From NCBI GenBank assembly GCA_040396195.1, contig JBEBPB010000005.1, positions 113,904 to 177,903 on the forward strand: a DNA stretch of 64,000 bases, given 5' to 3'. A program made the position numbers and the translations under genes. Shown one piece after another: positions 7,556 to 57,959 of the stretch. The notes below the pieces were generated by a model that was not told where the DNA came from, did no database searches, and worked only from the letters and a program-made list of their open reading frames with translations. The stretch is from Paenibacillus nanensis. GTDB taxonomy: Bacteria > Bacillota > Bacilli > Paenibacillales > Paenibacillaceae. How positions within the stretch are numbered: position 1 is the stretch's first letter; the number at the start of each line of letters is the position of its first letter.

Positions 7556-7951
7556 ATGTATGCCAATGAGAGTAATGCAGAGCTGACTGAAGGTCAATTG
7601 GTGCATGCGGAAGTAAGAACGGGGAAATATATCGGTGAAATTGTACAATTCAACGGTCCGCGTGCTGTTGTAAAGGTGCTGGCAGTAGTCAAGCATCCGG
7701 ATCAAGGGGATTTGCACAGCTCCTTTAATCCTGATGCGGCCATGTTCCATGAACGCAGAGCACTTAGTTATACAGAAAAAACAACGGTTCTGAAAAGGGA
7801 TTTAAAAGCGTATAACGGATCAGTTCCTGATTATAAACAATCCCTTCTGCAAGCAGCGGAGGCCGAGATTATTGCATTAGGCAAATTAGAGCGATGGGCT
7901 GCACAAAGCCTGGAGATCTTGCAGGAACTTAAAAAAGATTACGAAAAATAA
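7556..7951 (+). CDS. kapB: Kinase-associated protein B
   Basis: TGKYIGE...VKVLAVVKHPDQGDLH...FHERRAL, recognised as the KapB family. Confidence 0.85.
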   Translation: MYANESNAELTEGQLVHAEVRTGKYIGEIVQFNGPRAVVKVLAVVKHPDQGDLHSSFNPDAAMFHERRALSYTEKTTVLKRDLKAYNGSVPDYKQSLLQAAEAEIIALGKLERWAAQSLEILQELKKDYEK

Positions 7952-8353
7952 AGGAAATATATAATATGGAAATTCCAGCAAAATAGATGAGACCATTTCT
8001 TGTATATGAAGATTTATTCTATACTTAAGCATATCAATCGGTAAGGCTGCTGAAACAATTGGCGGTCTTTTTTTATATTGAGCCCCAGGAGGAAGCTGCC
8101 ATTCAACAAAAACGAACACCTTCGCTTCTCCAATTCCATTTAAGAATTGAAATTTCTAGGCAATAAATAAGATTCTGTTTAAGAAAATAACCTATTGTAT
8201 GGTAAAATAAAAGTGAAATTAAGCTATTTATAAAAGGATGTCTTTGTGGATTTGCCTTCTTAATTTAAGGTCTAAAATGCAAAATAGCTGCCGTATAATT
8301 GGCAATAGAGCTAAAAGTTTTTTTATCATCTTATTAAAGAGAGGATAACAGCG

Positions 8354-11300
8354 ATGAAGCTTTTTAAGCATGCAACTGCATATCCGACTGTATACGGTGC
8401 TGCATTACTGGAATCCGGCTTTGCCGTTCAGGAAAACGGTATAGCTTCGCATGATATTATTCGTCGTGCCGGCTTGATTCTTGCTGGTATTGAAGAGAAG
8501 CAAGCTGCTGAATGGCCAGCAAATAATGGTGCTGCGTTACATACAGTGCTTTTTCATCAGCTGTTTGCTGATTTTTTTTCTCAATCCGCTATTCAATTGC
8601 CGCAACCGGGAGAGTATGCTGCAGCAATGTGGTACTTACCCTGTGACCTGGCAACTCGGCAAGCTTTGGAGAAGGAAATAACGGAAACGGTGGAGGAACA
8701 GCAGTTTCGCATTTTAGGATGGCGTGAAGTGCCGACGGATGAACAAGCGGCAGTAAGGAGCAATTCACCTCCGCCTTATATTAAGCAAATGTTTATTGTT
8801 CCTGCAGATTCATCCAAGCAACTGAAGCTTGATGAGGGCTTGGGAGAACAAGCCCTGTTTCGTCTCCGAAGAAAGCTTGAGCAGCTTGTTGCAGCCCATA
8901 GTTTGCCAAGCGGATCGCTTGCCGGGTTGTCCGCCAAACTGATCGCTTATCATGCGCCGTTGTCTGCGACTGATTTCTTTGAGTTTTACAAGGATTTGAG
9001 AAATCCGGTTGCGGCTGCTCCATTAGCGGTTGTATATACTTATCGTTATGGGGAAGAGAAGTTTGGCTGGACGTTGCCCTTTTGTTTGCATTATATGTTT
9101 AGAAGCGGAAAACTGCACTCAATTGAAAGCAATCGTGATATGCTGCAATGTCGTGTGCAGCAATTTCGTGCGCCATATGTACAAGGATTGAAAGATCCAC
9201 TTGAATTAGATGCCTTGGAATGTCAACTAGACAAGCGTGAGGATTATTACGGATCAGTGCTTGCGGACAGACTTGCTGAACAGTTCTATTTGTCTGATCG
9301 TTCAATTGCCCAATCTGCTTTGCAGATGATGCCGAATTTGGCGTTATCTGCTTCACCGCTAAATAAAACACTGCAAGCTTATTATCAGTTTAATAGCACT
9401 CAAATGGAACCATGGGAAGGGCCTGCTGTGCTAATATTTACGGATGGAACGCATGTGGGCGCAATGATTGACCGCAATAGTTTCCGCTCAGTACGATATA
9501 TTCGAACGAGTGATGGTTGTGTGTTGCTGTCCAGCCGACCTGCCAATTTCGACGTGCAGGAGAAGCATATTTCGATAAAGAACAGATTACGACCCGGCAG
9601 AATGCTTTATATAGATATGGCACAGCAAGAAACAATTTCTGATGCTGAGCTTAAGGATAGACTAGCGGCGGTGCATCCTTATGAAAAATGGGTCGGAGAG
9701 CAGCTAATAACGCTTAGCGAATTGCCGGAGTCTCCGCTTGGAGGAAGCTGGGAGACGAATGAGCTTGTAGAATTGCAAATCCGATTTGGGTACACTTCAG
9801 AAGATGTGCACAAAATGGTTGAGCAGATGGCGGTTACGGGGCAGGATCCTATTTTGTCGATGGGCTTTGATGCGCCGATAGCACTTTTGTCTATGCAGTA
9901 TAAGCAGCAGCGGCTGTATAACTATTTTAAACAAGACTTTCAGCAATTGCTCAGTCCTTCTATCGACCCAGTTCGAGAGCAGGCATCTACAGCAACACAA
10001 TTAACGCTTGGACCAGAGAGAGACTTGCTGAGCGCAGAGGCTGTAAGTTGCAGACGAATTTATTTGGAGACACCTATACTATTGAATCAGGAACTGACCA
10101 AACTGCGCAGGCTGCGTCGTCCTGGATTAAGAGCTATGACACTGCCAATTCATTATGAGGTAAGCAAAGGAGCCGATGCAATAGTTGCCGAATTGGAGAC
10201 GCTTGGCAAAGCAGCGGTACGCTTGGCGGAACGAGGCTATTCTCTAATCGTGCTGTCTGACCGTGACACAACTGCGGAGCAAGCGGCTATACCAGCGCTG
10301 TTGGCTACCGCAGCTGTTCATCAAGCTTTGGTGCAGGCAGGTATGCGCAATCGCTTGTCCTTGCTGGTCGAGTCAGGCGAGCCCAGGGAAACGCATCACT
10401 TTGCTTTGTTAATCGGCTATGGAGCAGACGCGGTCAATCCCTATCTTGCTTTGGAAACCATTGAGGACTTGATTGACCGCAATATTCTCAAAGGAATTTC
10501 AGAAGAGAAGGCTGTGCGCAATTTTGTACAGGCGGCAACTCGTGGTACAGTGAAAGTAATGTCCAGAGCTGGTATTGCTACTGTGCAGGCCTATCGTGGC
10601 TCTAGAATGTTCCAGATTATTGGACTTGAGGAGGAATGGTGCCGCCAATATTTCGGTAATACGAAGGTTGTTTTGGGTGGTCTGAGCCTGCAAGAGCTTG
10701 CTCAGGATACAGCTGGCGCGCATCACCAATCGCTCGCTGTCAGTGTGCAGGACGGGGCGGACTATGAATTGGAGAGCGGCGGTCAGTATCAATGGCGCAA
10801 GGATGGAGAGGAGCATCTGTTTCATCCCCAAACGATACATACACTGCAAACAGCTGCCAAAAAAAACAACTATCAAACCTATCTCAAGTTTACTGATTTG
10901 GTGCAAGGGGACCGCAAGCGTCATTTGACGTTGCGTTCTTTACTGGAGTTTTCCTATGAACGGTCTGAACAGATTGCACTGAATGATGTTGAGTCTGTAG
11001 AAAGCATTGTCAAAAGATTTCGTACAGGAGCAATGTCATACGGGGCAATTAGTGAAGAGGCATGGAGAAGTCTTGCAGTTGCGATGAACCGTCTTGGCGG
11101 TAAAGCAAATTCTGGTGAGGGAGGGCTAATTGAGTCTGACTCGGAGGAAGGCTCGGAATTAAATAAAATCAAACAGATTGCTTCGGGACGTTTTGGCGTC
11201 AATCTCGCCTATTTGCAAAAAGCAGAGGAAATTCAAATTAAAATTGCGCAAGGGGCAAAGCCGGGCGAGGGCGGACGTTTACCCGCTGTAAAGGTGTATC

Positions 11301-12901
11301 CGTGGATTGCAGAAATTCGCGGCACTACTCCGGGTATTGGCTTAGTATCGCCGCCTTCGCATCATGATATATACTCAGTGAAGGATTTGGAAGGCTTTAT
11401 TGCTGATATTAGGCTGTTAAATAACAAAGCGAAAGTTTCTGTTAAGCTAGCGGCAGGAACCTTCGATGCAGAAGCGGCTATTGAAGCGGCAAAAAGTGGT
11501 GCAGACGGTATTCTTGTAAGCGGCTATGATGGCGGAACGGCTGCTGCGCCAATCGGTTCTTTACGACATGCCGGCTTGCCTTGGGAGATTGGGCTTGCAA
11601 ATGTGCATCAGGCACTGTCTAGAGTGAATTTGCGCAAGCAAATCAGACTTGAGACTGACGGGAAATTGATGACAGGACGCGATGTTGCTATCGCTGCATT
11701 ATTGGGAGCAGATGAGTATGGCTTCTCAACAGCACCGCTTATTGTGCTTGGTTGTATTATGATGCGGGTTTGTCAATTGGACACATGCCCGGTGGGGATA
11801 GCAACACAAAATCCGGAGCTGCGTAAAAAGTTTGCTGGCGATCCAGAGCATATTGTGAACTATATGACTTTTATTGCCCAGGAATTACGTGAAATTATGG
11901 CTAAGCTAGGCTTTAAAACGTTGGATGAAATGATTGGTCGAACGGATAAGCTTCAACTTGCAGCAACGAATGAACGGATGCAGCCAGCCGCATTGCAGCT
12001 TAAGCAATTATTGGATCTGCATAGGAAATTGAAAGCAGAGGCGATGGCACACGATGGCGGTACACAAACTTCACCTGTAATAACTAATGGGGCTGCTGTT
12101 GCTGCGCTACAAAGACCGGAAATTGCCGAAGAAGCAGCCCTTTTCTCGATTAAGGTTGCGCTGGAACAAGGCAAACGATTTAGTGAATCCTTCGAGCTAA
12201 CTCAAAATATGCGTGCAGCAGGAGCTGCTGTAAGCAGCTTGGTTGGTCAATTTTTGTCCAGCGGCAGTTCCTTGCCTGATGATTTTATTTGTATTACTTA
12301 TAATGGCAGGGCAGGAGATAGTTTTGGGACATTTGCCCCGCGTGGCGTAACATTGTCTTTGATAGGTGACAGCAATGACTTTTTTGGCAGAGGTTTGTCT
12401 GGCGGAAGAATTGCCATCTCACCTGCCCGGGAAGCGACTTATGAGGCGCGTTATCAAATTATTACCGGCAACTCGGCTTTGTATGGTGCTACAAGCGGAG
12501 AAGCATTTATTAACGGAGTAGCAGGTGCCAGATTTGCCGTACGCAATAGCGGAGCGACTGCGGTTGCTGAAGGTGCGGGTGATCATGCTTGCGAGTATAT
12601 GACGGGCGGGCTGGTCATTATACTTGGGGAAACGGGACGCAACTTTGGAGCAGGAATGACAGGTGGCACCGCGTTTATATTGGATGAGCAGGATGATTTC
12701 TATTACAGATGTAATCTTAAAACAGTCAAATTAGAAAGAGTAGAGCAGGATGAGGACATAGACATATTGCACAGTTGGCTGGAGAAGCATGTTTTATTGA
12801 CAGGCAGCCCGCTTGCTGCTAAAGTATTGCAAAATTGGGAAACCTCTTACGAATGGTTTGTAAAAGTAACTCCTAAGCGCAGCCGGCGCCAAACAGATTA
12901 G
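8354..12901 (+). CDS. Glutamate synthase large-subunit-like protein with degenerate amidotransferase domain
   Basis: Full GltB architecture: MEPWEGP, MSYG, NSGEGG, KQIASGRFGV, KIAQGAKPGEGG, CIMMRVCQLDTCPVG and C-terminal GXGXG repeats. The N-terminal CG catalytic motif is missing (see findings). Confidence 0.9.
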   Translation: MKLFKHATAYPTVYGAALLESGFAVQENGIASHDIIRRAGLILAGIEEKQAAEWPANNGAALHTVLFHQLFADFFSQSAIQLPQPGEYAAAMWYLPCDLATRQALEKEITETVEEQQFRILGWREVPTDEQAAVRSNSPPPYIKQMFIVPADSSKQLKLDEGLGEQALFRLRRKLEQLVAAHSLPSGSLAGLSAKLIAYHAPLSATDFFEFYKDLRNPVAAAPLAVVYTYRYGEEKFGWTLPFCLHYMFRSGKLHSIESNRDMLQCRVQQFRAPYVQGLKDPLELDALECQLDKREDYYGSVLADRLAEQFYLSDRSIAQSALQMMPNLALSASPLNKTLQAYYQFNSTQMEPWEGPAVLIFTDGTHVGAMIDRNSFRSVRYIRTSDGCVLLSSRPANFDVQEKHISIKNRLRPGRMLYIDMAQQETISDAELKDRLAAVHPYEKWVGEQLITLSELPESPLGGSWETNELVELQIRFGYTSEDVHKMVEQMAVTGQDPILSMGFDAPIALLSMQYKQQRLYNYFKQDFQQLLSPSIDPVREQASTATQLTLGPERDLLSAEAVSCRRIYLETPILLNQELTKLRRLRRPGLRAMTLPIHYEVSKGADAIVAELETLGKAAVRLAERGYSLIVLSDRDTTAEQAAIPALLATAAVHQALVQAGMRNRLSLLVESGEPRETHHFALLIGYGADAVNPYLALETIEDLIDRNILKGISEEKAVRNFVQAATRGTVKVMSRAGIATVQAYRGSRMFQIIGLEEEWCRQYFGNTKVVLGGLSLQELAQDTAGAHHQSLAVSVQDGADYELESGGQYQWRKDGEEHLFHPQTIHTLQTAAKKNNYQTYLKFTDLVQGDRKRHLTLRSLLEFSYERSEQIALNDVESVESIVKRFRTGAMSYGAISEEAWRSLAVAMNRLGGKANSGEGGLIESDSEEGSELNKIKQIASGRFGVNLAYLQKAEEIQIKIAQGAKPGEGGRLPAVKVYPWIAEIRGTTPGIGLVSPPSHHDIYSVKDLEGFIADIRLLNNKAKVSVKLAAGTFDAEAAIEAAKSGADGILVSGYDGGTAAAPIGSLRHAGLPWEIGLANVHQALSRVNLRKQIRLETDGKLMTGRDVAIAALLGADEYGFSTAPLIVLGCIMMRVCQLDTCPVGIATQNPELRKKFAGDPEHIVNYMTFIAQELREIMAKLGFKTLDEMIGRTDKLQLAATNERMQPAALQLKQLLDLHRKLKAEAMAHDGGTQTSPVITNGAAVAALQRPEIAEEAALFSIKVALEQGKRFSESFELTQNMRAAGAAVSSLVGQFLSSGSSLPDDFICITYNGRAGDSFGTFAPRGVTLSLIGDSNDFFGRGLSGGRIAISPAREATYEARYQIITGNSALYGATSGEAFINGVAGARFAVRNSGATAVAEGAGDHACEYMTGGLVIILGETGRNFGAGMTGGTAFILDEQDDFYYRCNLKTVKLERVEQDEDIDILHSWLEKHVLLTGSPLAAKVLQNWETSYEWFVKVTPKRSRRQTD

Positions 12902-12971
12902 TGTTTTGCGCCAGGCTGTTTCAAACAAGAAGTTAGTGAAGAAAGATATTTTATGTCAAGGAGGATAACAG

Positions 12972-13892
12972 ATGGGAAATGTACTAGTTGAGATAGAAAA
13001 TGTAACAAAACGAATTGGAAAAAGAACCATTATTGACTCTTTGTCACTCAAATTAATGCCGGGTGAAGTGTTTGGCTTTTTGGGCCCTAACGGCTCAGGA
13101 AAAACGACAACGATTCGTATGATGGTTGGACTTATGGCTATGACCTCAGGGGAAATTAAAATTGACGGCTACAGTATTAAAAGCAACTATGAAAAAGCAA
13201 TTAAGCAAGTTGGTGCAATTGTAGAAAACCCTGAGATGTATAAATATTTGACCGGGTATCAGAATTTGCTTCACTTTGCAAGAATGATACCCGGCATAAC
13301 TAAAGAACGCATAAATGAAGTAATTCAATTGGTTGGCATGCAGGCCCGTATCCATGAAAAGGTTAAAACCTATTCGCTTGGCATGCGGCAACGGCTTGGA
13401 GTCGCGCAGGCGCTGCTTCATAATCCGAAACTGCTTATTTTGGACGAGCCTACCAATGGTCTTGATCCAGCTGGAATCCGTGAACTGAGAGACTACTTGC
13501 GGCGTTTATGCCATGAGGAAGGAATTACTGTATTTGTATCGAGTCATCTTCTTTCTGAAATGGAACTAATGTGTGATAAAGTAGCGATCATTCAAAATGG
13601 TAAGCTAATAGATATTAGGACGATTAAAGGTGTTGAAGCACAAGCATCAAACAAATCCATGATTATCGAAACAAATAATGCAGAGCTGGCAGCAAGGATA
13701 CTGACTGAAAAAGGTGCGGCATTGCAAGTTAAGGAAAACGGCATACTGAATGTTACAGGCAATCGGGAAGATCGCGCCGCGTATAACGCATTGCTGGTTC
13801 AAGCAGGAGTTATGGTCTATAGCATTCGAGAAGAGCAGAAATCGTTGGAGGATCAATTTTTGGAGGTTACTGGAGGTGAGCAAATTGGGTAA
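12972..13892 (+). CDS. ABC transporter ATP-binding protein (YhcH/BcrA-like exporter)
   Basis: GPNGSGKTT, YSLGMRQR and LILDEPTNGLDP. Confidence 0.92.
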   Translation: MGNVLVEIENVTKRIGKRTIIDSLSLKLMPGEVFGFLGPNGSGKTTTIRMMVGLMAMTSGEIKIDGYSIKSNYEKAIKQVGAIVENPEMYKYLTGYQNLLHFARMIPGITKERINEVIQLVGMQARIHEKVKTYSLGMRQRLGVAQALLHNPKLLILDEPTNGLDPAGIRELRDYLRRLCHEEGITVFVSSHLLSEMELMCDKVAIIQNGKLIDIRTIKGVEAQASNKSMIIETNNAELAARILTEKGAALQVKENGILNVTGNREDRAAYNALLVQAGVMVYSIREEQKSLEDQFLEVTGGEQIG

Positions 13893-14685
13893 CTATTTGG
13901 GCTTAATCAAAAATGAAAACATGAAAATTTATCGTCGTCCAAGAACTTTTGTTATGCTTGGAATTATTGTTGGCTTTGTATTGCTCATTTCGATTCTGTG
14001 GCTATCCTTCGGCAATAAAGATACGTCGATGTGGGATGTTGTTATGATGGAGACACAGATACTCTTTATGCTGGTTACGATATTTTCAGTTGTAATTGCA
14101 GCGGGTACAGTTGCAGAAGAGTTCTCAACAGGTACGATAAAATTGTTGCTGATTCGGCCGTGGACACGCTCAAAAATTTTATTATCCAAATACATTTCAG
14201 TACTCTTGTTTTTGCTGCTGACAACAGCCCTGCTCTTGGGAAGTGTGCTGCTCATTAACTGGCTTTGTTTCTCATTGTTCCAATCAAGCGAGGCAAGAGC
14301 TTCGATTGAAGAGGAATTGTTGATGAAAGACACACCGTTGGTATTCATATTGAAAACATACGGGCTGCAAGTGATTTCATCTATTATCACTGTAACAATG
14401 GCATTTATGTTGTCAACTATATTTCGAAACAGCGGATTGGCGATTGGTATGGCGCTATTCCTACTGTTGGTAGTTAATAATATTATGCAATTGGTATCCC
14501 TATTGAAATACAAGTGGATTGATTATATCTTATTTACCCATTTGAATCTTACACAATATTTGTCCGGTATGCCTATGCGCGAGGGAATGACTCTGCAATT
14601 TTCATTAGTGGTGCTGGCGTGCTACTGGATCGTATTTATTGCACTGACATGGCTTGTATTTAAAAAGAGAGATGTAGCAGCATAG
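13885..14685 (+). CDS. ABC-2 type permease (YhcI-like)
   Basis: Six TM-like segments, EEFSTGTIKLLLIRPWTRSKILLSKY, and a C-terminal F.KRDV. TTG at 13885 with SD GGAGGTG overlaps the ATPase stop. Confidence 0.9.
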   Translation: MGNYLGLIKNENMKIYRRPRTFVMLGIIVGFVLLISILWLSFGNKDTSMWDVVMMETQILFMLVTIFSVVIAAGTVAEEFSTGTIKLLLIRPWTRSKILLSKYISVLLFLLLTTALLLGSVLLINWLCFSLFQSSEARASIEEELLMKDTPLVFILKTYGLQVISSIITVTMAFMLSTIFRNSGLAIGMALFLLLVVNNIMQLVSLLKYKWIDYILFTHLNLTQYLSGMPMREGMTLQFSLVVLACYWIVFIALTWLVFKKRDVAA

Positions 14686-25953: not shown

Positions 25954-26990
25954 CTAGCTGCCTAGCTGCCAAATGGATTGCATATGATGCAGTTTTTTGC
26001 CAAGTGCCTCCATAAAAAAGTAGTCGCCAAATATCGTATATACTCCTTGCCCATTTTGTTGCTTCAACACTCCTGGAGTATGCAAATTATAATCGGTATA
26101 TCGAGTCGCAAGCGTATGCAAAATACGATTTTCAGCTTGCTCAATGATCGGATTGCTTTCGTATTTCAAAATTTCATGAAAAGCACAGGCAGCTATGGCG
26201 GCAGCAGAAGTGCCTACGTTCAAATGTGTATTTCCGGGATCGGTAAAATCCCAGTTGATCCAGCTTTTATTGCCGCAAGCAGCGGCTGGTTGGTTGGAGG
26301 GCAGCTTGAAATCCCACAGAGGAATACCATCTTCCTCACAGTACTGAATAAAGGTAAGGGATAGACTAAGCGCAGCATCCAAATATCGTCGATATCCCGT
26401 ATAGGCATAAGCAACGGTAAAGCCGTAAATCGCCCAAGCCGTCCCTCTTGCCCAGTGAGAATCGGGGGAGTAACCGCAATAATTGTCTTCTCCAAGCGGT
26501 TTTCCGGTATGTTCGTCAAACCGGTAGGCATGGCAGACTGAGTAATCATCTCTAATAAAAAAGCGCAAGGTTGTATCGGCATGAGCCTCGGCAATATTTC
26601 TATAAAAGGGATGTCCAGTTTGTTTACTCGCCCAAAATAATAACGGCAGATTCATCATACAGTCGATAATGGCAAGTCCTTTGCTCTCTGTGAAAAAATG
26701 GTTTTTCGCCAACTCGGGAGCAACATAGTCAGGAATTTGGTTGTCCATTCTTCCCCAGGCACGAATATAGCTTCCCTTTGGAACGAAACGCTTCGCCAGC
26801 TCATCGGCAGCCTTGATTGCCATTATCTTCAATTGCTCATCATTCACAAGATGGTGTAGGGCTACAACATAAGGCGTATACAAAAAGCCTAAATCGTGCA
26901 TCGTTTCCATAGGGGTGCTAAATACTTTTTCTTTGTATTGATCAGGAAAGCTATAAAGCCAACGAAGCCATTTGGGATCTATAGTAAGGA
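25954..26990 (-). pseudogene. Glycoside hydrolase family 88 (unsaturated glucuronyl hydrolase), apparently 5'-truncated
   Basis: HDLGFLY, IRAWG, IIDCMMNLPLLFWAS, WARGTAW and IFGDYFFMEAL are present. The N-terminal W..GFW.G segment is absent and the first ~40 codons look non-coding. Confidence 0.7.
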
Positions 26991-27207
26991 AAAAAAGTAA
27001 TGAACATGAAGCATCTCTCGATTTTCTGCACATAATCATGAAGTAATCTATACACACATGTAAAAGCAACAATGGAGTGGTAGAAGCACTAGCGACGATC
27101 GCATATTGCAACCAAGATATTTAAGACAGTTTATCGACAGCCTCCATACGGTTGCTAAGACGCCAGTCGCTAGGTCGCTAAAAGGCAACCAGGAGAGGAG
27201 AGTTGGG

Positions 27208-57233: not shown

Positions 57234-57959
57234 ATGCTTAGATTTTTATTTAATGAACCGCAATCAGTGCCTGAAGGTAAGCTTCTGGAGACTTATCAAG
57301 CGATTGATCAATTTGTGTCGCTTCTACAAAAAAAAGCAGAAACGACCAGGGCTGAACAAACAACCTTTATGGAGAAGCTGCGCAAGTATGAAATTTGGTC
57401 GCTCGGCTTATCGGCTTCTCTAAATGAGCTTGAGCAAAGCAAATATGCTTCAGCCATGTTTTATAAGGAAATTAAATCTAGCTCATTGAAAGATATGAGC
57501 AATGAGGAACGTTTGAATTACAATCGATATGTTTATTTTGATAAAGACGGATTTATTCGTGTATTCTCCTTGCTGGATAAGCTAGGTACTTTTTTAAATG
57601 AAATGCTTCAAATGAAAACAGAGCGCATAAAACCTCATTTTTCTTACTTCACTGTACTTCGCAATATGCGCGAGAATAAGGCGCACCCAGAGCTGACTTG
57701 GAAACTAAATGATGTCAAAGAACAATATAAGGAACCGATGAGTCGTCTGCGGAAAAGACGAAACACTGAAATTCATTATATGAATTCCGAGATGCACGAT
57801 GATTTGATTTTGAGCCAGCGAATGTACGGAGAGGACAATCCTCTGGAAAATTTGAAACAGCAAGCCAATGATTTATCAGATTGCTTGATGATGGCAACCG
57901 ACTCATTGTCGCTTGTGTTTCAATACGGCTGCAAACTGGCTCGTAAAAAACAGCTGTAA
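57234..57959 (+). CDS. HEPN domain protein (Cthe_2314-like)
   Basis: All-helical; F..IRVFSLLDKLG.FLN and an RxxxxH motif (RRNTEIH). Confidence 0.75.
   Translation: MLRFLFNEPQSVPEGKLLETYQAIDQFVSLLQKKAETTRAEQTTFMEKLRKYEIWSLGLSASLNELEQSKYASAMFYKEIKSSSLKDMSNEERLNYNRYVYFDKDGFIRVFSLLDKLGTFLNEMLQMKTERIKPHFSYFTVLRNMRENKAHPELTWKLNDVKEQYKEPMSRLRKRRNTEIHYMNSEMHDDLILSQRMYGEDNPLENLKQQANDLSDCLMMATDSLSLVFQYGCKLARKKQL

What the first reader, a model, noticed from the sequence alone, without database searches (positions are those of the whole stretch)
8354..12901. Glutamate synthase paralogue with a dismantled glutaminase but intact FMN/2-OG/Fe-S core and no small subunit
Seen: an uninterrupted 1515-aa GltB-like ORF. 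Compared with canonical GltB as recalled from B. subtilis GltA and Azospirillum, every Ntn-amidotransferase motif is lost: the HDA|CG nucleophile Cys1 is absent, HRG reads IEEK, GDGAG reads NNGAA, VYKG reads AYHA, HSRFSTNT reads VYTYRYGE, and HNGEIN reads RSGKLH. The loop-4 Glu that couples the two sites (YSIEDL; E978 Azospirillum/E1013 Synechocystis) is Lys here (YSVKDL). The synthase domain is kept: MSYG, NSGEGG, KIAQGAKPGEGG, the 2-OG-binding Arg (IRGTTPG), DGGT, and the 3Fe-4S CX5CX4C. No gltD flanks the gene. Inference: domain-selective loss without frameshifts points to repurposing rather than decay. Possibilities are an ammonia-dependent or reverse FMN oxidoreductase, a 2-oxoglutarate/redox sensor, or a regulatory decoy, given that B. 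subtilis GltAB binds and inhibits GudB.
Basis: partly seen in the sequence, partly recalled or inferred. Interest (0 to 1): 0.78.

Follow-up and report, generated by a model that had tools for sequence, protein, structure and literature searches.

The report
Glutaminase-dead resident glutamate synthase gene
In a small group of Paenibacillus species the normal glutamate synthase large-subunit gene, still in its usual place, has lost its glutamine-splitting site and ammonia channel. It has kept its flavin/iron-sulfur half under selection, so it is probably a glutamine-independent redox enzyme of unknown role, not a spare copy or a dying gene.

Summary
ORF 8354-12901 encodes a full four-domain GltB homologue. 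It lacks Cys1, the oxyanion Asn and every other PurF-type glutaminase motif. It keeps the FMN, 2-oxoglutarate and 3Fe-4S residues.

The interpretation needs correcting in four ways.

1. It is not shown to be a paralogue. It sits in the same slot (ugtP-kapB-[lipase]-gltB-...-ABC) and behind the same promoter block as the canonical gltB of 12 other Paenibacillus genomes.
2. Those canonical genes also have no adjacent gltD. "No small subunit" is therefore the family norm.
3. The synthase half is not fully intact. The ammonia-tunnel gate (TN to LS), the coupling loop (IE to VK) and SPPPHHD (to SPPSHHD) are changed. These positions are invariant in about 370 intact enzymes. They are also changed in two independent glutaminase-dead GltBs.
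4. The degenerate form is shared by at least four species-level lineages. dN/dS is about 0.1 (0.23 in the dead N-terminal half, 0.06-0.07 elsewhere). The protein nevertheless evolves 5-8 times faster than canonical GltB.

This is repurposing, not decay. The function is inferred: a glutamine-independent 2-oxoglutarate/glutamate oxidoreductase. I could not establish whether another canonical GOGAT exists in these genomes.

The parts
8179..8208 (+). Putative promoter (TTAAGA-18-TAAAAT with an extended -10 TG). It lies inside a block, CTATT(G/C)TATG(G/A)TAAAATAA, shared with canonical and degenerate gltB genes of other Paenibacillus.
   Evidence: Consensus scan. The block is conserved upstream of gltB in clade members and canonical species. 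Function as a promoter is inferred.
8339..8345 (+). Ribosome-binding site GAGAGGA, 8 nt before the ATG.
   Evidence: Read directly from the sequence.
8354..12901 (+). Complete ORF of 1515 aa: a GltB (glutamate synthase large subunit) homologue with a dead glutaminase.
8354..9073 (+). Residues 1-240: the N-terminal half of the former Ntn amidotransferase domain. Cys1 is L19 (8408-8410), Arg31 is K49, and YTYRYGEE (9035-9058) replaces HSRFSTNT. This is the fastest-evolving structured part.
   Evidence: Alignments. dN/dS 0.23. Only 2-7 of every 30 columns are invariant within the clade.
9074..9733 (+). Residues 241-460: the C-terminal half of the amidotransferase-like domain. RSGKLH (9101-9118) replaces HNGEIN, and G300 (9251-9253) replaces Asp270. 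It is well conserved within the clade through its own motifs (ALQMMPNLALSASP, MIDRNSFRSVRY).
   Evidence: dN/dS 0.06.
9734..10723 (+). Central domain (residues 461-790). The tunnel-gate pair Thr507/Asn508 (Azospirillum numbering) is L533/S534 (9950-9955).
   Evidence: Pfam PF04898. Numbering by alignment to 1EA0. TN is present in 366 of 369 intact enzymes.
10724..11953 (+). FMN/synthase domain (residues 791-1200).

Kept residues:
- E922 (NSGEGG)
- Q966 and K969 (AQGAKPGEGG)
- R989 (IRGTTPG)
- 3Fe-4S Cys 1134, 1140 and 1145 (11753-11788)

Changed residues:
- R975 (11276-11278) where intact enzymes have Q, E or H
- S1002 (11357-11359) for the invariant Pro
- V1009-K1010 (11378-11383) for the invariant Ile-Glu of loop 4
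- A1063 in GGTAAA
   Evidence: Pfam PF01645 at 3e-138. Alignments to 7MFM, 1EA0 and 1LLW. Position statistics. dN/dS 0.07.
11954..12223 (+). Variable linker (residues 1201-1290). It is barely conserved within the clade.
   Evidence: dN/dS 0.36.
12224..12901 (+). C-terminal GXGXG beta-helix domain and stop codon. The ~45-aa helical tail (IPKDYKRML...AAFEAN) present in the other clade members and in canonical GltB is missing here.
   Evidence: Pfam PF01493. Alignment. Identical in a second assembly of the species.
12972..14685 (+). Neighbouring ABC ATPase (12972-13892) and ABC-2/DUF2705 permease (13876-14685). They start 70 nt after the stop, with no terminator detected between. The pair is ancestral to the locus: it lies 1-4 kb downstream of canonical gltB in other species. 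It is probably not functionally tied to the ORF.

Best explanation
**What it is.** This is the resident gltB of a small Paenibacillus lineage, not an extra copy by position.

**How it arose.** In the ancestor of that lineage three things were lost together: the PurF-type glutaminase site, the ammonia-tunnel gate and the loop that couples the two active sites. The residues that bind FMN, 2-oxoglutarate and the 3Fe-4S cluster were retained. Since then the whole protein has stayed under purifying selection, but with a constraint about 4-5 times weaker than canonical GltB.

**What it most likely does (inferred).** The protein can no longer use glutamine. It still works as an FMN/Fe-S oxidoreductase on the 2-oxoglutarate/glutamate pair. 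The reaction would be either reductive amination with free ammonia or glutamate oxidation. Electrons would pass through the 3Fe-4S cluster to or from a partner (GltD or ferredoxin) encoded elsewhere. The dead amidotransferase domain, especially its conserved C-terminal half, is kept as a structural scaffold for the central and FMN domains. The dead glutaminase domain of carbamoyl-phosphate synthetase I is a comparable case.

**Shown:** loss of the motifs, orthologous position, selection, and retention of cofactor ligands.

**Inferred:** cofactor binding, substrate, direction of the reaction, and the electron partner.
For: **Architecture and family scores:**

**Glutaminase residues replaced in all clade members:**

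**Same slot as canonical gltB.** The slot is ugtP-kapB-(GDSL lipase)-gltB-...-ABC/ABC2. It holds canonical gltB in P. albus and 11 other genomes. The same promoter block is present. P. albus GltB is the standard Paenibacillaceae enzyme, with hundreds of relatives at 77-97% identity.

**Selection**
- IITD108 versus the JGI contig: dN/dS 0.10 overall. By domain it is 0.23, 0.06, 0.07, 0.07 and 0.07 for GAT-N, GAT-C, central, FMN and GXGXG.
- Three near-identical strain pairs: 0.10-0.13.
- Window versus a second assembly: 7 synonymous and 2 conservative changes.
- The frame is open in a further relative about 7% diverged.

**Kept residues:** K969, R989, E922, Q966 and three cluster cysteines. 128 of 178 canonical-invariant FMN-domain columns are kept in all four clade proteins.

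**Tunnel and loop-4 positions.** These are invariant in about 370 intact enzymes. They are changed here and in two independent glutaminase-dead GltBs. This fits a coordinated loss of the glutamine-to-synthase relay only.

**An independent case.** P0348 has a GltD gene 1 kb downstream. A dead-glutaminase alpha subunit can therefore stay paired with the NADPH-feeding subunit.
Against: - There is no biochemical or expression evidence. No RNA run holds the gene.
- The protein evolves 5-8 times faster than canonical GltB relative to UgtP. All domains are relaxed, not only the glutaminase: FMN-domain dN/dS is 0.07 against 0.01-0.05 in canonical pairs.
- Changes near the flavin site could weaken FMN binding or alter the substrate. 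These are GGTGAS to GGTAAA, the GVGTIAAGVAK strand rewritten, and Arg at a position that is Q, E or H in 373 intact enzymes.
- From my own knowledge of the Azospirillum and Synechocystis enzymes, canonical glutamate synthases use free ammonia very poorly. An ammonia-dependent reaction would need a new entry route, and that cannot be judged from sequence.
- The electron donor is unidentified.
- It is not known whether these genomes carry another GOGAT or a GDH.
Confidence: 0.5

Rival explanations
1. It is a neofunctionalised oxidoreductase. The FMN/Fe-S module now acts on a different 2-oxo, amino or hydroxy acid. The clade-invariant Arg975 and the rewritten loop 4 and tunnel exit form a new substrate pocket.
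For: Arg975 is invariant in the clade and never seen in 373 intact enzymes. Sixteen canonical-invariant FMN-domain columns are changed in all four clade proteins, many to the same residue. Sustained fast evolution is typical after a change of function.
Against: The residues that hold 2-oxoglutarate in solved structures (K969, R989, E922, Q966) are all unchanged. Loop-4 position 1010 differs among clade members (K/R/R/Y). That looks like lost constraint rather than a new pocket.
Confidence: 0.2
2. It is a true spare copy. A canonical gltB (with gltD) exists elsewhere in these genomes, by duplication or transfer. That would have freed the resident copy to lose its glutaminase. This is the first reader's "paralogue" scenario, and it is compatible with any of the biochemical readings.
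For: Relaxed, accelerated evolution is what redundancy predicts. In metagenome run X1, a 5187-bp contig about 79% like Paenibacillus canonical gltB has depth 10.7. The window organism has depth about 8 in the same run.
Against: The degenerate gene, not a canonical one, occupies the ancestral slot and promoter. Isolate-genome run X9 (7.07 Mb of contigs, IITD108-type) shows nothing at least 80% like Paenibacillus gltB. The control shows that this test has low sensitivity. X1 is a complex metagenome, so its contig may belong to another bacterium.
Confidence: 0.25
3. It is a non-catalytic regulator or scaffold, for example a binder of glutamate dehydrogenase or of a transcription factor, as B. subtilis GltAB binds GudB. 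The enzyme fold would be kept only for binding.
For: B. subtilis GltA inhibits GudB through a loop between the Ntn and central domains (bioRxiv 10.1101/2021.04.12.439528, read). Overall constraint is weaker than for the enzyme.
Against: Cofactor ligands and substrate-binding residues are invariant across the clade, and the FMN domain is its most conserved part at 65-72% identity. The segment equivalent to the GudB-binding loop is not conserved within the clade. Fully non-catalytic GltB relics do exist, and they look different: they have also lost the FMN and Fe-S motifs.
Confidence: 0.1
4. It is a pseudogene in slow decay, or an assembly or sequencing artefact.
For: The catalytic motifs are lost. 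The C-terminal tail is missing in the window species. The protein evolves fast.
Against: Seven independent sequences have open frames of 1515-1555 codons, across synonymous divergence that is saturated. dN/dS is about 0.1. Clade-specific motifs are conserved. The same sequence appears in two assemblies and four metagenome runs.
Confidence: 0.03

Closest known systems
Canonical Paenibacillaceae GltB (e.g. P. albus P0005; stand-alone gltB in the ugtP-kapB locus)
   Same: Same genomic slot, same promoter block and same four-domain architecture. 47% identity. No adjacent gltD in either.
   Different: The canonical enzyme keeps Cys1, HRGG, GDGAG, RFSTN, HNGEIN, the tunnel TN, loop-4 IE and the C-terminal tail. 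It evolves 5-8 times more slowly.
B. subtilis GltA in GltAB (PDB 7MFM/7MFT), Azospirillum alpha-GltS (1EA0, 2VDC, 6S6x)
   Same: Best solved relatives (E = 0). The FMN, 2-oxoglutarate and 3Fe-4S residues align one to one.
   Different: Those are glutamine-dependent, work with GltD encoded next door, and have intact tunnel and coupling elements.
Ferredoxin-dependent glutamate synthase (Synechocystis 1LLW/1OFD)
   Same: A single large polypeptide without an adjacent small-subunit gene, and the same cofactors (review PMC8097209).
   Different: Fd-GltS has a working glutaminase (Cys1, Asn227, Glu1013). Identity to it is lower than to Firmicute NADPH-type alpha subunits (916 bits against 1224).
Enzymes that keep a dead glutaminase domain: carbamoyl-phosphate synthetase I; the AsnB-derived beta-lactam and carbapenam synthetases (from my own knowledge, not tested here)
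   Same: A glutamine amidotransferase domain is retained without its nucleophile while the synthetase half goes on working. The AsnB-derived cases involve the same Ntn class.
   Different: Different synthase chemistry. For the present protein neither ammonia use nor any activity is shown.
Other degenerate GltB homologues found here: P0348 (metagenome, GltD gene downstream), P0368 (Chloroflexi MAG), and 1200-1380-aa "glutamate synthase-related" proteins (Micrococcales MAG, Pseudaeromonas sharmana)
   Same: P0348 and P0368 have a dead glutaminase with intact FMN motifs, and changes at the same tunnel and loop-4 positions.
   Different: They arose independently (26-31% identity in the GAT domain) and are singletons. 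The 1200-1380-aa group has also lost the FMN and Fe-S motifs.

Membership tests
Glutamate synthase large subunit (GltB / alpha-GltS; NCBIfam NF008730) | Four-domain architecture: Ntn amidotransferase, central, FMN/synthase, GXGXG beta-helix | tested here: met
   All four Pfam domains hit at 1e-69 to 3e-138.
Glutamate synthase large subunit (GltB / alpha-GltS; NCBIfam NF008730) | Scores above the curated equivalog cutoff | tested here: met
   1189.6 bits against a cutoff of 1047. It passes on the strength of the other three domains.
Glutamate synthase large subunit (GltB / alpha-GltS; NCBIfam NF008730) | N-terminal nucleophile Cys1 and PurF-type glutamine-binding and oxyanion residues (Arg31, Arg206/Thr209/Asn210, Asn227-Gly228, Asp270; Synechocystis numbering) | tested here: not met
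   L19, K49, YTYRYGEE, S251 and G300 stand in their place.
Glutamate synthase large subunit (GltB / alpha-GltS; NCBIfam NF008730) | Ammonia-tunnel gate (Thr507/Asn508, Ser976/Ile977) and coupling Glu978 (Azospirillum numbering) | tested here: not met
   L533/S534 and V1009/K1010 stand in their place. These positions are invariant in 366-372 intact enzymes. The roles of these residues are from my recollection of the structural literature.
Glutamate synthase large subunit (GltB / alpha-GltS; NCBIfam NF008730) | 2-oxoglutarate and FMN site residues (Glu903, Gln969, Lys972, Arg992; Synechocystis numbering) | tested here: met
   E922, Q966, K969 and R989 are kept. The neighbouring Gln978 position is Arg975.
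Glutamate synthase large subunit (GltB / alpha-GltS; NCBIfam NF008730) | Three cysteines ligating the 3Fe-4S cluster (CX5CX4C) | tested here: met
   C1134, C1140 and C1145 are invariant in the clade.
Glutamate synthase large subunit (GltB / alpha-GltS; NCBIfam NF008730) | Glutamine-dependent glutamate synthesis with GltD/NADPH or ferredoxin | not testable with these tools
   This needs an enzyme assay. No gltD lies in the window.
Class II (Ntn, PurF-type) glutamine amidotransferases | Processed N-terminal Cys as nucleophile | tested here: not met
   The position is Leu/Ile/Ile/Thr in the four clade proteins. The former propeptide is replaced by a clade-specific motif, YPx[IV][YF]G.
Synthetases with a retained dead glutaminase domain (a working analogy, not a sequence family) | Amidotransferase fold kept under selection without catalytic residues | tested here: met
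   The Pfam GATase_2 match spans 22-446. dN/dS is 0.23 and 0.06 in its two halves.
Synthetases with a retained dead glutaminase domain (a working analogy, not a sequence family) | The synthase half works with free ammonia | not testable with these tools

The most novel reading that the evidence does not exclude
These Paenibacillus species have no other GOGAT. Their only gltB would then have become a glutamine-independent, ammonia-using (or glutamate-oxidising) Fe-S flavoenzyme. The GS-GOGAT cycle would be naturally broken and replaced by a GOGAT-derived glutamate dehydrogenase. The same route may have been taken independently in at least two other lineages.
Probability: 0.2. Interest if true: 0.8.

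Novelty: new variant of a known kind. Interest (0 to 1): 0.55.

Why it matters
Glutamate synthase is the textbook case of two active sites coupled through a gated ammonia tunnel. Here evolution has removed the glutaminase, the gate and the coupling loop together, while the redox half has stayed under selection for a long time. This happened in the gene that normally carries out central nitrogen assimilation.

That provides three things:
- A ready-made natural "uncoupled" alpha subunit for testing what the synthase half can do alone.
- An evolutionary cross-check of which residues belong to the relay. The same positions fall in three independent dead lineages.
- A physiological question: how do these bacteria make glutamate?

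It is also a warning for annotation. The protein passes the curated gltB equivalog threshold and is named "glutamate synthase large subunit" in public records, although it cannot use glutamine.

Tried and rejected
1. **Second canonical gltB in the same genomes.**
   - tblastn of the window finds only this gene.
   - Canonical Paenibacillus gltB laid on metagenome runs X1, X2, X5 and X6 gave many short pieces from mixed organisms, which cannot be interpreted.
   - On isolate run X9 it gave nothing. A 20-kb control probe showed that genes at about 77% amino-acid identity are also missed, so this negative is weak.
2. **Expression.** No RNA run holds the gene.
3. **Nitrogen-regulator sites.** There is no TGTNAN7TNACA (GlnR/TnrA-type) box upstream of gltB in the clade or in canonical species. 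The one perfect box at 12954-12970 is not conserved in relatives.
4. **Riboswitch or leader RNA.** No Rfam match in 7900-8420.
5. **Functional link to the downstream ABC transporter.** Rejected as an inference. The pair lies 1-4 kb downstream of canonical gltB too, so it is ancestral synteny.
6. **dN/dS from organism A (about 7% diverged).** Only 40 of about 560 differences are printed, so it could not be computed. Only the in-frame status was taken from it.
7. **Literature.** Six full-text searches found no description of a Cys1-less glutamate synthase.
8. **Structure prediction.** Not run. The tool returns no coordinates, the protein exceeds the 1200-aa limit, and a canonical-rich alignment would give a confident canonical fold whatever the function.
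9. **Gln978 to Arg as a diagnostic change.** Toned down, because intact enzymes carry Q, E or H there.

Full report
**1. The observation**

The window holds one uninterrupted ORF, 8354-12901 (+), of 1515 aa, behind a good ribosome-binding site. It has all four GltB domains: GATase_2 22-446, Glu_syn_central 475-759, Glu_synthase 823-1187 and GXGXG 1284-1468. It passes NCBI's curated gltB equivalog model, 1189.6 bits against 1047. Its best solved relative is B. subtilis GltA, 7MFM.

Cys1 is L19. HRGG is EEK. GDGAG is NNGAA. VYKG is AYHA. HSRFSTNT is YTYRYGEE. HNGEIN is RSGKLH, so the oxyanion Asn227 is S251. The Asp of GSD (Asp270) is G300. YSIEDL is YSVKDL.

There is no gltD in the 64-kb window.

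**2. It is a clade, and it is under selection**

A search of 5.8 billion proteins found only three close relatives: Paenibacillus sp. IITD108 (57%), a JGI metagenome contig (56%) and P. yanchengensis (51%).
- Cluster look-ups add Paenibacillus sp. GXUN7292 and several Logan contigs.
- Run searches add a relative of the window species about 7% diverged, with the frame intact.
- The IITD108 type occurs in sediment, root, soil and gut metagenomes.
- A scan of 1.84 billion representatives with the GAT domain finds one representative for the whole clade (428 bits). The next hit scores 218 bits.

All clade members lack the glutaminase motifs. They share their own conserved motifs instead: YTYRY, RSGK[LI]HS, ALQMMPNLALSASP, MIDRNSFRSVRY and GGRLP.

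Nei-Gojobori dN/dS for IITD108 against the JGI contig (dS 1.5) is 0.10 overall. By region it is 0.23 for residues 1-240, 0.06 for 241-460, 0.07 for the central domain, 0.07 for the FMN domain, 0.36 for the linker and 0.07 for GXGXG. Three near-identical strain pairs give 0.10-0.13. The window and a second assembly of the same species differ by 7 synonymous and 2 conservative changes. This excludes decay and assembly error.

**3. It is not a paralogue by position**

The closest canonical hit, P. albus GltB (47%), lies in the same slot: ugtP (MGDG synthase), kapB, GDSL lipase, gltB, then an ABC ATPase and ABC-2 permease a few kb downstream. No GltD-type gene is called within 6 kb of it. That protein is the standard Paenibacillaceae enzyme, with hundreds of relatives at 77-97% identity.

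I scanned species genomes with the window's UgtP. This returned 12 loci. In 11 of them the slot holds a canonical gltB 82-83% identical to the P. albus gene. In the twelfth (IITD108) it holds the degenerate form.

A promoter block, CTATTCTATGATAAAATAA (an extended -10), lies upstream of both canonical and degenerate genes. In the window it is the promoter-like site at 8179-8208.

On a UgtP tree the three degenerate-bearing species fall outside the tight group of canonical-bearing species. On a GltB tree the degenerate proteins form one long-branched group inside Paenibacillaceae.

The simplest reading is that the resident gltB changed in the ancestor of this lineage. "No flanking small subunit" is the rule for the family, not a peculiarity of this gene.

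**4. Rate**

I measured GltB protein distance relative to UgtP from the same loci. The ratio is 0.53 (median) among canonical species and 2.5-4.2 within the clade. That is 5-8 times faster, and it is sustained after the split of the clade members. Canonical dN/dS is 0.02-0.03. Constraint is therefore relaxed about 4-5 fold in all domains, and most strongly in the first 240 residues.

**5. What was lost besides the glutaminase**

Sixty-seven columns that are at least 97% invariant in 116 canonical sequences are changed in all four clade proteins: 39 in the GAT domain, 8 in the central domain, 16 in the FMN domain and 4 in the C-terminal domain.

The central- and FMN-domain changes include QVTNPPID to QLLSPSID, SPPPHHD to SPPSHHD and YSIEDL to YSVKDL. 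By alignment to 1EA0 these correspond to Thr507/Asn508, Pro970, and Ile977/Glu978. From my recollection of the Azospirillum and Synechocystis structures, these residues are the tunnel constriction and the loop-4 glutamate that contacts Cys1. That assignment was not re-verified in a paper here. The review PMC8097209 confirms only that the tunnel is lined by the central and synthase domains.

An independent statistical check agrees. Among 373 glutaminase-intact sequences:
- the third Pro of SPPPHHD is present in 370 of 371;
- Ile-Glu is present in 372 of 372;
- Thr-Asn is present in 366 of 369.

All three sites are changed in this clade. They are also changed in the two unrelated glutaminase-dead, FMN-intact GltBs that turned up, P0348 and P0368. 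The whole glutamine-to-synthase relay has therefore gone, not only the nucleophile.

Position 1010 varies inside the clade (K/R/R/Y), as expected once its partner is lost. Arg975 is invariant in the clade and is never Arg in intact enzymes, but the position is naturally Q, E or H, so I give it limited weight.

**6. What it most likely does**

The FMN domain is the best-conserved part (65-72% identity within the clade). It keeps the cofactor and 2-oxoglutarate residues, so a redox-active synthase module is the most economical reading.

Without a glutaminase, the nitrogen would have to be free ammonia (reductive amination), or the enzyme would run towards glutamate oxidation. Electrons would enter or leave through the 3Fe-4S cluster to a partner encoded elsewhere.

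The C-terminal half of the dead GAT domain is as constrained as the catalytic domains (dN/dS 0.06), which fits a scaffold role.

All of this is inference. The evidence against it is as follows:
- Constraint is relaxed across the whole protein.
- There are changes near the FMN phosphate site (GGTAAA).
- Canonical enzymes use ammonia poorly (my own knowledge).
- There are no expression data.

The rivals are a new substrate (0.2), a non-catalytic regulator (0.1) and decay (0.03). As a separate question of origin, a canonical GOGAT may exist elsewhere in the genome (0.25).

**7. What could not be settled**

I could not establish whether these genomes encode another gltB, a gltD or a GDH. The isolate run X9 shows nothing at least 80% like Paenibacillus gltB, but the control shows the test is insensitive. 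Metagenome X1 contains a canonical-like 5.2-kb contig at a similar depth, which may or may not belong to the same organism.

**8. Comparison and novelty**

The protein is a homologue, and by position an orthologue, of GltB. It fails the family's defining glutaminase and tunnel features. It should not be filed as a glutamine-dependent glutamate synthase, although public records name it so.

The nearest functional analogies are enzymes that keep a dead glutaminase domain: CPS I, and the AsnB-derived beta-lactam and carbapenam synthetases. These come from my own knowledge.

Six literature searches found no description of such a GltB.

Degenerate GltB homologues are not unique to this clade. Two other glutaminase-dead, FMN-intact sequences exist; one of them has a GltD gene 1 kb downstream. 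There is also a scattered set of 1200-1380-aa relics that have lost the FMN and Fe-S motifs as well. All are unstudied, and most are singletons.

I rate this a new variant of a known kind, of moderate to good interest.

Noticed in passing
L021:214-4758 (protein P0348), with a GltD-like gene at L021:5747-7219: An unrelated metagenome GltB (1514 aa) has also lost Cys1, RFSTN and HNGEIN but keeps the FMN and Fe-S motifs. A Fer4_20/Pyr_redox_2 small-subunit gene lies 1 kb downstream. It is a singleton, with nearest relatives at 47-48% identity. The contig has low coverage (2.59x).
   Followed up: partly
Proteins P0263, P0279, P0294, P0301/P0396, P0375, P0386, P0393/P0403: These are GltB-like proteins of 1200-1380 aa that lack both the glutaminase motifs and the FMN/2-oxoglutarate/3Fe-4S motifs. 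Sources name them "glutamate synthase-related protein" (Micrococcales MAG) and "glutamate synthase central domain-containing protein" (Pseudaeromonas sharmana). They appear to be fully non-catalytic relics of GltB.
   Followed up: partly
window 12854-12901, compared with L001, L003 and L005: The window protein ends at ...VKVTPKRSRRQTD. It lacks the ~45-aa C-terminal tail (IPKDYKRLL...AAFEAN) kept by the other clade members and by canonical Firmicute GltB. The intergenic gap to the ABC gene is only 70 nt, so the tail-coding DNA has been deleted.
   Followed up: partly
L008:7641-7760 and the equivalent regions in L006 and L009-L018: Canonical Paenibacillus gltB genes share a leader of about 110 nt, conserved up to ...AAAAATCTTCTCATAGAAAGGTTGCA before the start codon. 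The degenerate clade keeps the promoter block but not this leader. No Rfam family matches the window's leader.
   Followed up: partly
L009 (DATJKM010000233.1): This contig is labelled "Candidatus Udaeobacter sp." MAG. It carries a typical Paenibacillus ugtP-kapB-lipase-gltB locus (UgtP 77% and GltB 82% identical to Paenibacillus proteins). It is probably mis-binned.
   Followed up: no
window 12954-12970: A perfect TGTNAN7TNACA palindrome (GlnR/TnrA-type consensus) overlaps the ribosome-binding site of the ABC ATPase gene. It is not conserved in the three other clade loci, and the window-wide count of such sites is at chance level.
   Followed up: yes
Run X1, contig record 2 (5187 bp), laid on L008:4783-7491: The insect metagenome that holds the window sequence at 100% also holds a contig about 79% identical to canonical Paenibacillus gltB. 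Its depth is 10.7, against about 8 for the window organism. It may come from the same genome or from another Paenibacillaceae; this was not resolved.
   Followed up: partly
window 57234-57959: An ORF of 241 aa gives a strong match to the Cthe_2314-like HEPN domain (PF18730, 8e-60). It sits between a CtaA-like gene and a short-chain dehydrogenase gene.
   Followed up: no
window 25954-27111 (-): An ORF of 385 aa has no Pfam match at 1e-5.
   Followed up: no
window 1-22291 compared with L004: The window is 99.75% identical to contig JBEBWW010000048.1 of GCA_040391905.1 (37 mismatches and 1 gap in 22.3 kb). It comes from a second strain or assembly of the same species. The same sequence occurs in four runs labelled insect metagenome.
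   Followed up: yes
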